Positions 99 through 2,824 of a DNA stretch of 14,706 nucleotides are shown here, piece by piece. The position numbers were made by a program, and so were the translations under genes. The notes beneath the pieces are model-generated. The model did not search any database. It was given only the letters and a program-made list of their open reading frames with translations, and was not told the origin of the DNA. The stretch comes from a virus, in the UHGV virus genome UHGV-0056970; one strand, 5' to 3'. Positions within the stretch are counted from its first letter, which is position 1, and every line of letters begins with the position of its first letter.

Positions 99-1010
99 TT
101 ACGTATCCTTTGAAGTATCGGCATGGCCGGCTAAAGTCCTAATCTTCTTAGGCGCTTTAATCTTCGTTGGATTATCCGTTACTGGAATTTTAAGCAGATC
201 GCTGAAGAACATAGCCTCAGAACCTTTGTACCGATCTTGAGCACTATAATTTATACCGTACATTAAAGACTGTGTTTTATTATACATATCTCTAATTTCA
301 GGTGTATTGTCGTACGATACAATCCACGGCGTTTTTATGTCAGATTGAACAACCTTTGCTACATTCACATGATCTTCGTGGTTGTAATGATTGATATATA
401 ACCCTTTCCCTTTGACATAGTACGGAGGGTCTAAGTAAGTTATTGAATTTTCTGGCAACTTTGTAATTATATTATTGATAAACTCGATAGCATCTAGATT
501 AAAAAGCTCAATTCGATCCTTTTCGGCATGAATGATTTTTATGCGAGAAATTAGGTCGTTTTTATTATATCTAGCATCTATTTTCCATTCGCCATCTTGA
601 TTTTTTCCACCAATAACTCCGCCCTTTAATATTCCGGAGCGATTGGTTCTATTAAGGAAAAATGTAGAGAAACCAATTGTTAGCAGGTCATAACTATTTG
701 TGTTATTTATTATTTCCTTTTGTTTATACCACTCATTCATAGTGACCGGTGTATCGTAGATCATAGAGCATAAAGTATCAGCATTGTTAAGAACAGAATG
801 CCAGAATGCATAAACGGAAACGTTTATATCGTTAAGGATAATTCTTTCAGCAATATTTAGATCTAGCAGTTTCAATGCAAGACCCGCGCCTCCAGCATAA
901 GGCTCAGCATAATGTATAGGCGAAAGATTATTTTCCTCAATAACATTTAGCATGAAGTTTGATAATTTGCCTTTACCGCCGGGATAGCGAAGTGGGGTAT
1001 TGAACCGCAT
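99..1010 (-). CDS. N6-adenine DNA methyltransferase, D12 class (Dam family)
   Basis: 303 aa. N-terminal RYPGGKGKL (Dam-like KWAGGK region), AEPYAGGAGLA (motif I, FxGxG-like), C-terminal YLDPPYY (motif IV, DPPY); motif order I then IV as in alpha-class Dam enzymes. Very AT-rich compared with the prophage backbone. Confidence 0.8.
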   Translation of the reverse strand: MRFNTPLRYPGGKGKLSNFMLNVIEENNLSPIHYAEPYAGGAGLALKLLDLNIAERIILNDINVSVYAFWHSVLNNADTLCSMIYDTPVTMNEWYKQKEIINNTNSYDLLTIGFSTFFLNRTNRSGILKGGVIGGKNQDGEWKIDARYNKNDLISRIKIIHAEKDRIELFNLDAIEFINNIITKLPENSITYLDPPYYVKGKGLYINHYNHEDHVNVAKVVQSDIKTPWIVSYDNTPEIRDMYNKTQSLMYGINYSAQDRYKGSEAMFFSDLLKIPVTDNPTKIKAPKKIRTLAGHADTSKDT

Positions 1011-1090
1011 AAGATACCTCTGGAAACCTAGTGATCATTATATCAAAAACACGGGCTTTATGGCCATCAGATAAAGCCCATTAATATCAA

Positions 1091-2824
1091 TTAGTTATCA
1101 GAAAGGTAAGAGTGGATTACGGCTGAGTCAACGCCCTGACCTGTGGTCATTACTATCTTGAGGCTTTTGGTGAAATCATATTTATATTGGTCGGATATAG
1201 CGCTATTCTTGGTGACCCAGTACCTATATGGATTGTTCTTGACTGGTCCATCTACCATACTTCTGAACTCGGGTGTATGCGCAAAATCTTTAAAGAGTTT
1301 ACGTACTACACCTAAAATACCTTGCTTCCCTTTTTTAAATTCATCGATTTCATTTGATATGTTTATTGGTGCCTTCCCTAATTTTAGAGTGGTTACTATA
1401 TCAGTGGCAATTCTGTTGAAGACTGGTTTTGTGAAACGATTTCTATTTTCCCAATAATCATCATCGGGTGGCAGGTTATATAAAAACTCAAATATCATTT
1501 GGTCAGGAGGGAGTAAATGGGGAAGAAGGCATAGGTTTTTTTCTTTTTTTGCTTTTTTTGCATTATCTCCATTATCATTTGCAACATCACCATCTAAGAC
1601 AATCAGACTTTTGACGGTGAATTCGGGGATTTTTCTGGCCATCAAATCAAGAATTGCACTGCAGCTTATATTTATATCACCTAGTGGGTTGATGATTTTG
1701 TTTATTTTTCTGTCAATAATTAATTGTTTGAAAAAATCAAATCCTTCTCGATCTTCAAAATAGACATTGGCCTTAGGTAAGTTTAAGTCTTCGTCAATTT
1801 TAACAGTTTGAACGTGAAGGTCAGCGTTAATATCTGGCCAAGATAAATTATTTCTTGTTTTGATATCACCATAGGTATCTGTTAAGTAAATTGTTTTGAA
1901 TGATTTCTCATCTTGTTTTGATCTATTATAGATATCTTCTATGATTAGCGGTGAGTGCGAAGTCATAATGATTTGCAAATCATATTGCTTTGCTGCTTTG
2001 GTTAGTATTTTTATTAGTTCGAATTGAGCCGCAGGGAATAAACCAGCATCAGCTTCATCAATTAAAAGAATGCCACCATGATAATCTGGGTAGGTTTCCT
2101 TTAATCGTTTAAATGAAAAAATAGCTTGAATTATTTGTCCAACATTATCTTCCCCTACAGATACTGACTCATGATCATAATTGTCACTATGTACAACCAT
2201 GGAATCAATAACCCCTTTTGTGGCTGTTACCGTACTCCCTGTGGTTTTTAATAATAATTGATTGTTCATAACTCTTATTTCTTCAGAGTTATCATTAATA
2301 TATTGAACATCCCTTGTCGCATAATCGGTACGTAAAGTAATAGGGAGTAATCTTGCCAAGCTTAGAAAAATAACAGGATGAGTTACATTACGGCTCTGGT
2401 TTGCACCAGGAATTCCATCATTACCACGGACGACAGGTCGAGCTTTTGCTCTATCAGTATAGCCATACAAACCTAAAGTAAGCTTGTCTAAATTTTTATT
2501 GACATTAGCATCATATAAATGAATCTTAACATCCATAGAGCCAGCAGTATCATATTCTTCAGATAATCTAAAATGCTCATTGAATGCTGACTTAAAGCTT
2601 CTGTTTGTTAATGTCTTATAGTTCTTTAAGTTCGTTACTGGATCTGTTGATTGGTCTCTTGAAAAGCTAAAAATTTGTGCGACGATACCAAGTATCGTCG
2701 ACTTTGATGTGCCATTTTTCCCACAAATAACAGTTAACTTACTGCCGAAATCAATATTTACGTCTTTTAGGCCTCTAAATTTTATAACCTGAAGTTTATT
2801 CAACTTAGTTATCTGATTCGCCAT
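1091..2824 (-). CDS. ABC-type ATPase with C-terminal Toprim-like domain (OLD-family / PARIS AriAB-like architecture)
   Basis: 577 aa. Walker A GKNGTSKST (res 35-43), Walker B ILLIDEAD (res 252-258), TSHS H-loop-like (res 288-291). C-terminal YFEDREGFD (EGxD, res 360-363) and LIVLDGDV (DxD, res 411-413) about 50 residues apart, as in Toprim folds. AT-rich; 80-bp gap to the downstream methyltransferase gene on the same strand. Confidence 0.6.
   Translation of the reverse strand: MANQITKLNKLQVIKFRGLKDVNIDFGSKLTVICGKNGTSKSTILGIVAQIFSFSRDQSTDPVTNLKNYKTLTNRSFKSAFNEHFRLSEEYDTAGSMDVKIHLYDANVNKNLDKLTLGLYGYTDRAKARPVVRGNDGIPGANQSRNVTHPVIFLSLARLLPITLRTDYATRDVQYINDNSEEIRVMNNQLLLKTTGSTVTATKGVIDSMVVHSDNYDHESVSVGEDNVGQIIQAIFSFKRLKETYPDYHGGILLIDEADAGLFPAAQFELIKILTKAAKQYDLQIIMTSHSPLIIEDIYNRSKQDEKSFKTIYLTDTYGDIKTRNNLSWPDINADLHVQTVKIDEDLNLPKANVYFEDREGFDFFKQLIIDRKINKIINPLGDINISCSAILDLMARKIPEFTVKSLIVLDGDVANDNGDNAKKAKKEKNLCLLPHLLPPDQMIFEFLYNLPPDDDYWENRNRFTKPVFNRIATDIVTTLKLGKAPINISNEIDEFKKGKQGILGVVRKLFKDFAHTPEFRSMVDGPVKNNPYRYWVTKNSAISDQYKYDFTKSLKIVMTTGQGVDSAVIHSYLSDN

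What the first reader, a model, noticed from the sequence alone, without database searches (positions are those of the whole stretch)
99..2824. AT-rich two-gene cargo between the att core and int: ABC-ATPase/Toprim (OLD- or PARIS-like) protein plus a Dam-family methyltransferase
The pair sits where integrative elements carry defence cargo, between the att core and the integrase, and is far more AT-rich than the prophage backbone, so it was probably acquired separately. The 577-aa protein has Walker A/B motifs followed by EGxD and DxD motifs about 50 residues apart, the layout of OLD-family nucleases (P2 Old is of similar length) and of fused PARIS AriA-AriB. Pairing with a D12-class adenine methyltransferase is not, to my knowledge, part of the canonical OLD, Gabija or PARIS descriptions. 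It could be an R-M-like system in which methylation protects self from the ATPase-nuclease, or two independent cargo genes.
Basis: partly seen in the sequence, partly recalled or inferred. Interest (0 to 1): 0.75.

Follow-up and report, generated by a model that had tools for sequence, protein, structure and literature searches.

The report
OLD-like nuclease paired with PD-λ-5 methyltransferase
A prophage carries, between its attachment site and integrase, a two-gene module found across many bacterial phyla: an OLD-like ATPase with a probable nuclease domain, plus the DNA adenine methyltransferase of the tested defence system PD-λ-5; it is most likely an undescribed restriction-modification-like anti-phage system.

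Summary
Window 99-2824 carries two minus-strand genes at 35% GC, against 47-51% in the prophage backbone. They lie between a tmRNA (ssrA) attachment core and the integrase. A 96%-identical Klebsiella phage has nothing at this position.

The 577-aa protein is an ABC ATPase. Its whole-protein model best matches OLD-family nucleases. The C-terminal Toprim call is probable but rests on weak, convergent evidence: Pfam finds nothing there.

The 303-aa protein is a D12-class adenine methyltransferase with intact catalytic motifs. It scores 2.4e-123 against PD-Lambda-5_B.

Linkage is the strongest result. All 78 ATPase loci with downstream DNA, from at least six phyla, also carry this methyltransferase. 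In 74 it lies directly downstream, with a median gap of 60 bp.

In viral contigs the same methyltransferase family pairs with this ATPase (19 loci), with the unrelated PD-λ-5 effector (29), or with both (2). PADLOC has no model for this pair, and I found no paper describing it.

Best reading: a restriction-modification-like PD-λ-5 variant with an OLD-like effector. The main rival is a PrrC/PARIS-like abortive-infection guard.

The parts
1..68 (-). 3' end of the tmRNA (ssrA) gene. This is the attachment-site core at the prophage end.
   Evidence: The sequence reads as the reverse complement of ...GCGGGTTCAACTCCCGCCAGCTCCACCA. Rfam gives truncated tmRNA matches. Bases 1-41 match att ends of many phage records at 97.6%. 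4,222 of 5,426 E. coli genomes match part of window 1-4300, most of them at 95-99% identity; I infer that this is the ssrA end, which I did not check separately.
99..1010 (-). D12-class (alpha) N6-adenine DNA methyltransferase, 303 aa, of the PD-λ-5_B family.
   Evidence: Pfam MethyltransfD12 9e-17. PADLOC PD-Lambda-5_B 2.4e-123 and MTase_II 5e-109. The motifs PLRYPGGK, EPYAGGAG and DPPY (D194-Y197) are at least 95% conserved in 80 partner-linked homologues. NCBIfam dam scores 52 bits against a cutoff of 115, so it is not an orthodox GATC Dam.
1037..1079 (-). Intergenic hairpin at 1079-1053 (GGGCTTTAT / ATAAAGCCC), followed by a T-run at 1052-1044, overlapping a promoter-like site at 1066-1037 (TGGCCA-18-TATAAT with TG). 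Possibly a terminator or attenuator after the ATPase gene and a separate promoter for the methyltransferase.
   Evidence: Sequence and promoter scan. The hairpin is the one stable element of the fold, but the z-score of the whole region is about 0. The hairpin, the T-run and GATATA(A/C)T are retained in E. coli, phiNP and IMG/VR homologues whose genes are only 75-79% identical. Function is inferred, not shown.
1925..2824 (-). ABC-ATPase half of the 577-aa protein, residues 1-300. Walker A is G35..K41-S42, the signature-like motif is S222-G224-D226, Walker B is D256-E257 and the H-loop is H290-S291.
   Evidence: Pfam AAA_15 3.7e-17, AAA_21 and AAA_23. PDB profile hits to retron PtuA, Septu PtuA, Thermus OLD and AriA. 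Invariant residues.
1505..1792 (-). Probable Toprim core, residues about 345-440. The order is strand-helix-strand-helix-strand-helix-strand. E357-D358 are invariant after strand 1, D411-x-D413 after strand 3, and E401 is invariant within the closer family.
   Evidence: Model secondary structure, pLDDT 88. Invariant residues down to 20% identity. HEC-04 HMM hits on the C-terminal half alone in 14 of 24 family members, best 1.4e-5. The ATPase-Toprim_I-B HMM alignment runs through residues 251-435. Top Foldseek hits of the isolated domain are OLD C-terminal regions but are not significant. No Pfam hit.
1094..1504 (-). C-terminal helical domain, residues 441-577, with invariant K512. It may correspond to the OLD helical domain that supplies a catalytic lysine.
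   Evidence: All-helical in the model. K512 is invariant in 30 sequences down to 20% identity. The analogy to the Bp OLD helical-domain lysine is inferred from PMC6755086.
2877..4043 (-). Tyrosine integrase of the prophage (context). The 72-aa ORF at 4004-4222 is excisionase-like by position.
   Evidence: Arm-DNA-bind_2 2e-23 plus Phage_integrase 3e-17. The homologous phiNP locus is annotated xis plus integrase.

Best explanation
Window 99-2824 is a self-contained, horizontally mobile two-gene defence module carried as prophage cargo. It is a sister of PD-λ-5.

Proposed mechanism:
- The D12 adenine methyltransferase methylates the host and prophage DNA, marking it as self.
- The 577-aa OLD-like protein is the effector. 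It has an N-terminal ABC ATPase, a Toprim-type metal-dependent nuclease core and a helical domain. It attacks incoming nucleic acid that lacks the mark, using ATP binding or hydrolysis to license cleavage.
- The methyltransferase has its own promoter-like site behind a terminator-like hairpin. That would let modification run independently of the nuclease.
- The same methyltransferase family serves two unrelated effector families, sometimes both at once. It may therefore also supply target recognition, like the Mod subunit of a Type III system.

Shown here: gene structure, domain content, obligate linkage, conserved catalytic motifs of both proteins, the shared methyltransferase hub, and mobility.

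Inferred: nuclease activity, DNA as the target, and protection by methylation.
For: 1. Linkage. In 80 genome loci retrieved with the ATPase alone, 78 carry this methyltransferase. The other two contigs end right after the ATPase gene. In 74 loci the methyltransferase is directly downstream on the same strand, with a median gap of 60 bp. The taxa span Gamma-, Beta- and Alphaproteobacteria, Geobacter, Bacteroidota, Mycobacterium, Acidobacteriota and Listeria. The pair also occurs in Streptococcus and Vibrio phages. No third gene is conserved.

2. The methyltransferase scores 2.4e-123 against PD-Lambda-5_B. PD-λ-5 is experimentally validated, gave the broadest protection in its screen, and had to be cloned in an mrr-deleted host. 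Its authors read it as a compacted RM+Abi system (PMC9519451).

3. Among 61 IMG/VR loci whose methyltransferase is at least 36% identical, 19 have the ATPase partner, 29 have PD-Lambda-5_A, 2 have both and 11 are unresolved. One methyl-mark module serves interchangeable effectors.

4. The catalytic motifs of the methyltransferase are at least 95% conserved across partner-linked copies. Methylation chemistry is therefore under selection, not just a scaffold.

5. The effector looks like an OLD nuclease. The full-length model has pLDDT 88, and its top PDB matches are Thermus OLD (1.3e-11), GajA and retron Eco8. E357, D358, D411, D413 and K512 are invariant down to 20% identity. HMM links to HEC-04 and to the retron I-B ATPase-Toprim model run through the C-terminal half. 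The equivalent E/DxD residues and the Walker A lysine of HEC-04 are required for its defence (bioRxiv 10.1101/2024.01.29.577857).

6. Defence and mobile context:
- the att-int hotspot at ssrA in the window, empty in the related phage Kp4866-6;
- the icd/e14 hotspot in E. coli STEC388;
- 14-15 loci flanked by an SNF2 helicase and a second methylase;
- a CBASS island next door in K. oxytoca;
- pair GC below flank GC in 68 of 70 loci, by 11.5 points on average.
Against: - No experiment on this pair exists. Neither the nuclease activity nor its substrate is known.
- The Toprim assignment fails Pfam, PDB sequence profiles and hhalign against P2 Old. Foldseek on the isolated domain is not significant.
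- Several OLD-family Toprim effectors are now reported to cut tRNA rather than DNA: PARIS AriB and P2 OLD (PMC11464382 and PMC12445682, abstracts).
- Shorter relatives of about 500 aa are stand-alone or sit inside Type I R-M operons. That is a PrrC-like 'guard' position.
- PD-λ-5 protects best against T-even phages, whose modified DNA resists most classical restriction enzymes.
- One genome (Diaphorobacter, L060) has an intact ATPase next to a frameshifted methyltransferase. If real, this argues against lethal self-restriction.
- The counts of decayed copies show no clear nuclease-lost-first asymmetry.
Confidence: 0.55

Rival explanations
1. Guard or abortive-infection model, like PrrC or PARIS. 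The ATPase-Toprim protein is a latent toxic nuclease, probably a tRNase. It is held in check by the methyltransferase or by the methylation state. It fires when a phage interferes, for example with a DNA mimic such as Ocr, a SAM-degrading enzyme or another anti-restriction factor, and then kills or arrests the infected cell. In this model the methyltransferase is the sensor or bait rather than a protector against self-cleavage.
For: - Relatives of the C-terminal domain of about 500 aa are stand-alone or embedded between hsdM and hsdS of Type I R-M operons. HEC-04 is embedded in Hma systems. These are positions typical of PrrC- or Rlo-type backup effectors.
- PARIS AriB and P2 OLD are tRNases, and AriA senses Ocr (abstracts; discussion in PMC12839542).
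- The PD-λ-5 authors called it 'RM+Abi', and it works best on T-even phages.
- The best BFVD match by probability for the C-terminal domain is an RloB-like protein, at probability 0.30, which is not significant.
Against: - A solitary methyltransferase with no restriction partner gives nothing to guard.
- The methyltransferase catalytic motifs are at least 95% conserved. The PD-λ-5 methyltransferase evidently modifies the chromosome, since an mrr-deleted host was needed. That is an unnecessary cost for a mere bait.
- The very broad phage range of PD-λ-5 fits a mark-based system better than a trigger-specific one.
Confidence: 0.25
2. The ATPase protein is not a nuclease. Its C-terminal domain is a degenerate or non-catalytic Toprim-like or other alpha/beta fold. 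The pair acts in another way, for example as an ATP-driven DNA clamp or loader that regulates or targets the methyltransferase, with an epigenetic or anti-restriction role for the prophage.
For: There is no significant Pfam, PDB-sequence or Foldseek hit for the isolated C-terminal half. An archaeal OLD-family class has a role in the cell cycle rather than in defence (PMC12796447, abstract). The prophage already carries two further orphan methyltransferases.
Against: - The acidic residues E357, D358, D411 and D413, and K512, are invariant down to 20% identity, at exactly the positions of the Toprim metal ligands.
- HMM links to HEC-04, whose E/DxD residues are needed for defence.
- The same methyltransferase pairs alternatively with the PD-λ-5 effector.
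Confidence: 0.08
3. Two independent cargo genes that merely sit side by side: an orphan anti-restriction methyltransferase and a stand-alone OLD-like exclusion gene.
For: Stand-alone ATPase-Toprim defence genes exist, namely HEC-04, IbfA and P2 Old. Lambdoid phages often carry orphan methyltransferases, and this window has two more.
Against: - The pair co-occurs in 78 of 78 testable loci across at least six phyla, with conserved order and a gap of about 60 bp.
- The same pair occurs in Streptococcus and Vibrio phages.
- No other gene is conserved around it.
Confidence: 0.03

Closest known systems
PD-λ-5 (Vassallo et al. 2022, PMC9519451; PADLOC PD-Lambda-5_A and _B)
   Same: The methyltransferase family is the same (2.4e-123 against PD-Lambda-5_B). 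Both are two-gene operons carried by prophages. In IMG/VR the two partner types alternate on closely related methyltransferases, and both occur together in L098 and L101.
   Different: The PD-λ-5 effector is a protein of about 460 aa annotated 'ParB/HEPN'. Here the effector is an unrelated 577-aa ABC-ATPase/Toprim-like protein. No PD-Lambda-5_A model appears among its 25 best PADLOC hits, the weakest of which is at 1.7e-12. By my reading, PADLOC would therefore not call a complete PD-λ-5 system here.
OLD-family nucleases (P2 Old and Thermus OLD = Class 1; GajA = Class 2; retron Eco8 = Class 3; PARIS = Class 4)
   Same: Same order of domains: ABC ATPase, then a Toprim-like core with E and DxD, then a helical domain. 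The length is similar, 577 against 586 aa for P2 Old. The top structural matches of the full model are OLD-family proteins.
   Different: - There is no detectable sequence similarity to the OLD Toprim at Pfam, PDB-profile or hhalign level.
- None of the class-defining neighbours is present: no UvrD-like helicase, no reverse transcriptase, no split AriA/AriB.
- The obligate partner is a methyltransferase. The OLD classifications I could read do not describe such a partner (PMC6755086; the other OLD papers show zero occurrences of 'methyltransferase' in the search tables).
HEC-04 / IbfA (stand-alone ABC-ATPase-Toprim defence proteins; bioRxiv 10.1101/2024.01.29.577857, PMC12111858)
   Same: These are the closest validated relatives of the C-terminal domain by HMM. 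They share the fused ATPase-Toprim layout. The Walker A lysine and the E/DxD residues of HEC-04 are needed for its defence.
   Different: - They are about 494-500 aa and work as single genes, or embedded in Hma or Type I R-M loci, without a dedicated D12 methyltransferase.
- The window protein itself matches the HEC-04 HMM only through its ATPase N-terminus.
- It has an extra C-terminal helical extension of about 70 residues.
Type III (and ATP-dependent Type I) restriction-modification
   Same: On the best reading, the logic is one methyltransferase that marks self plus an ATP-dependent nuclease subunit encoded next to it. The methyltransferase may supply specificity.
   Different: The motor is an ABC ATPase, not an SF2 helicase. 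The nuclease is Toprim-like, not PD-(D/E)XK. The methyltransferase is a small alpha-class D12 enzyme. None of the functional properties has been tested.
PrrC / RloC and Rlo genes (anticodon nucleases linked to Type I R-M)
   Same: An ABC-type NTPase is fused to a nuclease and is genetically tied to a DNA-modification module. Shorter relatives of this protein sit between hsdM and hsdS.
   Different: The PrrC nuclease domain is HEPN-like, and its partner is a complete Type Ic R-M system. Here the partner is a lone methyltransferase.

Membership tests
OLD-family nuclease | N-terminal ABC ATPase of the OLD/AAA_15 type with Walker A, Walker B, signature motif and H-loop | tested here: met
   AAA_15 at 63 bits against a cutoff of 32. 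PDB profile hits include Thermus OLD 6p74. That structure is also the top Foldseek hit, at 1.3e-11. The motifs are invariant.
OLD-family nuclease | C-terminal Toprim domain with a catalytic Glu and a DxD motif | tested here: inconclusive
   For:
- E357 and D411xD413 are invariant after strands 1 and 3 of a strand-helix-strand-helix-strand-helix-strand unit.
- HEC-04 HMM hits on the C-terminal half in 14 of 24 members.
- OLD C-terminal regions rank first in Foldseek.

Against:
- The Foldseek E-values are 0.5-0.9.
- There is no Pfam Toprim or DUF4435 hit, no PDB sequence hit, and hhalign against P2 Old aligns only the ATPase.
OLD-family nuclease | Helical domain that contributes a conserved catalytic lysine | tested here: inconclusive
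   Residues 441-577 are all-helical in the model, and K512 is invariant. I could not superpose it on the Bp OLD lysine.
OLD-family nuclease | Gene context of one of the described classes: single gene, UvrD-like helicase, retron reverse transcriptase, or split AriA/AriB | tested here: not met
   The only conserved neighbour is the D12 methyltransferase.
OLD-family nuclease | Metal-dependent nuclease activity regulated by ATP | not testable with these tools
   Needs biochemistry.
PARIS (AriA/AriB or fused AriAB) | AriA-type ATPase plus a DUF4435 Toprim (AriB), separate or fused | tested here: not met
   The AriA HMM matches at 1e-19 on ATPase segments only. AriAB matches at 5.6e-14 with its best stretch on residues 7-55. 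There is no DUF4435 hit. AbiLii matches one of 24 family members at 0.017.
Gabija | GajA together with an adjacent GajB UvrD-like helicase | tested here: not met
   GajA HMMs match only short ATPase stretches. No helicase is conserved next to the pair.
PD-λ-5 | PD-Lambda-5_B methyltransferase | tested here: met
   2.4e-123, 409 bits, full length 1-284 of 291.
PD-λ-5 | PD-Lambda-5_A effector (ParB/HEPN-like, about 460 aa) | tested here: not met
   No PD-Lambda-5_A model is among the 25 best PADLOC hits listed for the 577-aa protein, and no such ORF lies in window 1-4300. True PD-Lambda-5_A neighbours score 4e-90 to 3e-122 in other loci.
Dam (GATC) orthologue, TIGR00571 | Score above the NCBIfam cutoff | tested here: not met
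   52 bits against a cutoff of 114.85. It is D12 class but not an orthodox Dam. The recognition site is unknown.
Type II restriction-modification system | Type II-like methyltransferase with catalytic motifs | tested here: met
   PADLOC MTase_II PDLC03358 at 5.4e-109. DPPY and the SAM-binding motifs are conserved.
Type II restriction-modification system | Cognate endonuclease that cleaves the unmethylated site and is blocked by the methylation | not testable with these tools
   Needs cleavage assays and methylome data.
HEC-04 / IbfA | Single-gene ATPase-Toprim that is sufficient for defence | tested here: not met
   The window family is always paired with the methyltransferase. The HEC-04 HMM scores 1.5e-15 on the ATPase N-terminus of the window protein and gives no hit at E<=1 on its isolated C-terminal half.

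The most novel reading that the evidence does not exclude
The D12 methyltransferase is a portable 'Mod-like' hub that both marks self DNA and recruits interchangeable effectors: the OLD-like ATPase-Toprim protein, the ParB/HEPN protein of PD-λ-5, or both. On this reading the window encodes the first restriction enzyme built on an ABC ATPase and a Toprim nuclease. That would be a new ATP-dependent class of R-M, and a fifth bacterial gene context (a further class) of the OLD family, defined by an obligate methyltransferase partner.
Probability: 0.3. Interest if true: 0.75.

Novelty: new variant of a known kind. Interest (0 to 1): 0.6.

Why it matters
If the reading is right, three things follow.

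1. OLD-type ATPase-Toprim effectors have so far been studied as stand-alone or sensor-triggered nucleases. This would show that they can also be wired to an epigenetic self-mark.

2. It would give PD-λ-5 a mechanistic frame: one methyltransferase with swappable effectors.

3. It would add a compact, widespread module that PADLOC has no model for, so the surveys using that tool would miss it. About 55 clusters at 50% identity lie at E<=1e-30 and 485 at E<=1e-3 in 1.8 billion proteins. The module is in about 1.5% of complete E. coli genomes and in prophages of Klebsiella, Citrobacter, Streptococcus and Vibrio.

There is also a practical side. Such prophage cargo affects how well phage therapy and plasmid transfer work in Enterobacterales. 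The methyltransferase would also add an unexplained m6A motif to methylomes.

Tried and rejected
Toprim tests that gave nothing or only weak signal:
- Pfam on the full protein and on 24 C-terminal halves found no Toprim or DUF4435.
- HMM profiles of the family against PDB sequences hit ATPase domains only. The C-terminal profile gave only noise.
- hhalign of three family profiles against single-sequence P2 Old aligned only the Walker B region.
- I tried to build a P2 Old family profile from IMG/VR, but only 9 close relatives came back, so I dropped it.
- Foldseek of the isolated C-terminal model against PDB and BFVD ranked OLD C-terminal regions and an RloB-like protein at or near the top, but none was significant.

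Readings considered and rejected:
- PARIS and Gabija membership were rejected on domain and neighbour evidence.
- The methyltransferase is not related to the non-specific M.EcoGII, which is beta class (PMC7544214, abstract).
- I looked for a nuclease-lost-before-methyltransferase decay asymmetry. Only a handful of decayed copies exist, in both directions, so the test is uninformative.

Literature:
- No paper describing this pair was found.
- Krishnan et al. 2020 (PMC7544218), the ABC-ATPase conflict-system survey, could not be opened. Nor could the 2026 MANTIS preprint. An earlier purely computational mention in either cannot be excluded.

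
Full report
**What is there**

The window is a 14.7-kb metagenome contig (ENA ERZ1304707 NODE_2648). It carries the left end of an enterobacterial lambdoid prophage.

- Bases 1-45/68 are the reverse complement of the 3' end of tmRNA (ssrA). This is the attachment core.
- Four minus-strand genes follow: a 303-aa methyltransferase (99-1010), a 577-aa ATPase protein (1091-2824), a tyrosine integrase (2877-4043) and an excisionase-like ORF (4004-4222).
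- The two-gene stretch has 35.3% GC. The integrase has 47% and the rest of the prophage 51%.
- Klebsiella phage Kp4866-6 shares the backbone at 95.9% identity. In that phage the att core lies directly next to int, with nothing between them.

The pair is therefore cargo in an att-int hotspot.

**The methyltransferase**

- Pfam places it in the D12 class (62 bits against a cutoff of 22).
- It falls far below the NCBIfam Dam cutoff (52 against 115 bits). It is therefore not an orthodox GATC Dam.
- PADLOC matches it over its full length to PD-Lambda-5_B (2.4e-123) and to a Type II methyltransferase model (5e-109).
- In 80 partner-linked homologues, the N-terminal PLRYPGGK motif, the SAM-binding motif EPYAGGAG and the catalytic DPPY are at least 95% conserved. 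So is a long block (N120-R147) in the position of the Dam target-recognition hairpin.

Methylation chemistry is under selection throughout the family, and probably a common specificity as well.

PD-λ-5 is an experimentally validated two-gene system from E. coli ECOR7, described as 'ParB/HEPN, methyltransferase'. It gave the broadest protection in its screen and worked best against T-even phages. It had to be cloned in an mrr-deleted host. Its authors read it as a compacted prophage RM+Abi system (PMC9519451).

**The 577-aa protein: the ATPase half**

The N-terminal 300 residues are an ABC ATPase: AAA_15, AAA_21 and AAA_23 in Pfam, and PDB profile hits to retron and Septu PtuA, Thermus OLD and AriA. 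An AlphaFold model built on 40 homologues has pLDDT 88. Its best PDB matches are full-length OLD-family proteins: Thermus scotoductus OLD (1.3e-11), then GajA and retron Eco8.

**The 577-aa protein: the C-terminal half**

This half is harder to assign. These tests gave nothing significant:

- Pfam finds nothing in it, either in the window protein or in 23 relatives.
- A family profile finds no PDB sequence.
- hhalign against P2 Old aligns only the Walker B region.
- Foldseek with a separate, equally confident model of residues 301-577 ranks the Xanthomonas and Burkholderia OLD C-terminal regions first and sixth. Their E-values are only 0.5 and 0.9.
- An RloB-like protein is the best viral match by probability, at 0.30.

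These points favour a Toprim:

- The model has the strand-helix-strand-helix-strand-helix-strand order. In a 30-sequence alignment reaching 20% identity, E357-D358 are invariant directly after strand 1 and D411-x-D413 directly after strand 3. K512 in the following helical domain is invariant too.
- The isolated C-terminal halves of 14 of 24 family members hit the HEC-04 model, best 1.4e-5. The window copy itself does not.
- The retron type I-B 'ATPase-Toprim' model aligns through residues 251-435.
- A profile of the C-terminal half finds relatives of about 500 aa (E around 1e-15 to 1e-25). These in turn hit HEC-04 at up to 3.9e-27 and ATPase-Toprim_I-B at up to 1e-24, with alignments that span the Toprim region.

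HEC-04 is a validated ATPase-Toprim defence protein. Its E319, D375 and D377, and its Walker A lysine, are required for defence (bioRxiv 10.1101/2024.01.29.577857).

I therefore call the domain a probable, highly divergent OLD-type Toprim. E357 is the residue to mutate.

PARIS and Gabija memberships fail on both domain and neighbour evidence.

**Linkage**

I retrieved 80 genome loci with the ATPase alone, one genome per species. In 78 of them the methyltransferase is present. The other two contigs stop within 80 bp of the ATPase stop codon. In 74 loci the methyltransferase lies directly downstream on the same strand, with a median gap of 60 bp.

- The hosts include Enterobacterales, Pseudomonas, Acinetobacter, many Betaproteobacteria, Azospirillum, Geobacter, Bacteroidota, Mycobacterium, an acidobacterium and Listeria.
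- The same pair sits next to the integrase of Streptococcus prophages, and in a P2-like Vibrio phage.
- It is in Citrobacter phage phiNP and at ssrA in 83-87 complete E. coli genomes.
- A diverged copy sits at the icd/e14 site of E. coli STEC388.
- No third gene is conserved.
- In 14-15 loci the pair lies between an SNF2 helicase and a second methylase.
- The pair has lower GC than its flanks in 68 of 70 loci.

'Two independent cargo genes' is thus rejected.

**One methyltransferase, several effectors**

Searching IMG/VR with the methyltransferase gave 61 loci with at least 36% identity. Their partners are:

| Partner of the methyltransferase | Loci |
|---|---|
| ATPase-Toprim protein | 19 |
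| PD-Lambda-5_A-type protein | 29 |
| Both (L098, L101) | 2 |
| Unresolved or at a contig edge | 11 |

(a Pseudomonas phage example.)

The methyltransferase is therefore a shared hub with interchangeable effectors. The window's module is a sister of PD-λ-5, not a member of it, because the PD-Lambda-5_A component is absent. PADLOC-DB has no model for this ATPase family, and PHROGs lists it as phrog_3940 of unknown function. The OLD-family literature I could read describes no methyltransferase-linked class.

**Mechanism**

The best-supported reading is restriction-modification-like (confidence 0.55). The methyltransferase marks self DNA, and the ATPase-Toprim protein attacks unmarked incoming nucleic acid. 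The arguments are:

- the obligate pairing;
- the conserved methyltransferase catalysis;
- chromosomal methylation by the PD-λ-5 enzyme, implied by the need for an mrr-deleted host;
- the very broad phage range of PD-λ-5;
- the one-methyltransferase, two-effector loci.

The 80-nt spacer between the genes holds a hairpin and a T-run, followed by an extended -10 promoter-like site. Four enterobacterial versions retain these elements although their genes are only 75-79% identical. This would let the methyltransferase be expressed on its own. It is an inference only.

The main rival (0.25) is a PrrC/PARIS-like guard, in which the effector is a latent nuclease, probably a tRNase, released when a phage interferes with the methyltransferase or with methylation. 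Four findings support it:

- The shorter relatives are stand-alone or sit between hsdM and hsdS.
- PARIS AriB and P2 OLD cut tRNA (abstracts).
- PD-λ-5 is strongest against T-even phages.
- One genome has an intact ATPase beside a frameshifted methyltransferase.

Decayed copies are too few to show which gene is lost first.

**Verdict**

The finding is real, and the pairing is strongly non-random.

It is a new variant of a known kind: a methyltransferase-linked, OLD-like effector system related to PD-λ-5. It is widespread, PADLOC has no model for it, and it is readily testable.

I could not open the ABC-ATPase survey of Krishnan et al. 2020, so an earlier purely computational mention cannot be excluded. 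Interest 0.6.

Noticed in passing
window 4251-5195 (-): A second very AT-rich ORF (GC 0.31), 314 aa from a GTG start (288 aa by the gene caller). It looks like a membrane protein. It has no Pfam hit and matches phrog_12528 of unknown function at 1e-154. It lies just inside xis. The homologous E. coli prophage has an 867-bp hypothetical gene at the same place. It may be another cargo or exclusion gene.
   Followed up: partly
window 10533-11486 (+) and 11479-13461 (+): The prophage replication module carries two more methyltransferase genes whose ends overlap: a PF05869 'Dam' adenine methylase (1.8e-42), and a 660-aa protein with a C-5 cytosine methylase domain (7e-19). With the cargo methyltransferase, that makes three DNA methyltransferases in 14.7 kb.
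   Followed up: partly
window 1037-1079 (-): The ATPase-methyltransferase spacer holds a 9-bp-stem hairpin and a T-run that overlap an extended -10 promoter-like site. These elements are retained in four enterobacterial versions whose genes are only 75-79% identical.
   Followed up: partly
L171 (K. oxytoca GCA_900451255, UGJT01000003.1): A 99%-identical copy of the pair in which the ATPase has a premature stop (440 aa), the integrase is broken and the methyltransferase is intact. Immediately downstream lie a second integrase, a patatin gene and a DncV-like (CBASS) gene, so defence islands sit in tandem at ssrA.
   Followed up: no
L060 (Diaphorobacter aerolatus NZ_CP060783.1), locus 7720-8580: The ATPase is intact, but the methyltransferase has a single frameshift near residue 30. 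This could be a sequencing error, phase variation or a real pseudogene. If real, it argues against lethal self-restriction.
   Followed up: partly
L098 and L101 (IMG/VR contigs): Three-gene versions in which one methyltransferase is flanked by both a PD-Lambda-5_A effector and an ATPase-Toprim effector.
   Followed up: partly
L187 and L188 (metagenome contigs carrying P0263): A 500-aa relative of the ATPase-Toprim protein is inserted between hsdM and hsdS of a Type I R-M operon. In L187 a SocA_Panacea-domain gene follows. This is a PrrC/Rlo-like 'embedded' position.
   Followed up: no
L001 (E. coli NZ_AP022120.1), locus 4559-5800: A second, different integrase gene lies directly beyond the methyltransferase end of the prophage. 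Tandem integrative elements at ssrA therefore also occur in E. coli.
   Followed up: no
window 13431-13934 (+): A 167-aa ORF with a LexA DNA-binding domain (7e-20) lies downstream of the methylase genes, in addition to the CI-like repressor at 7106-7738.
   Followed up: no
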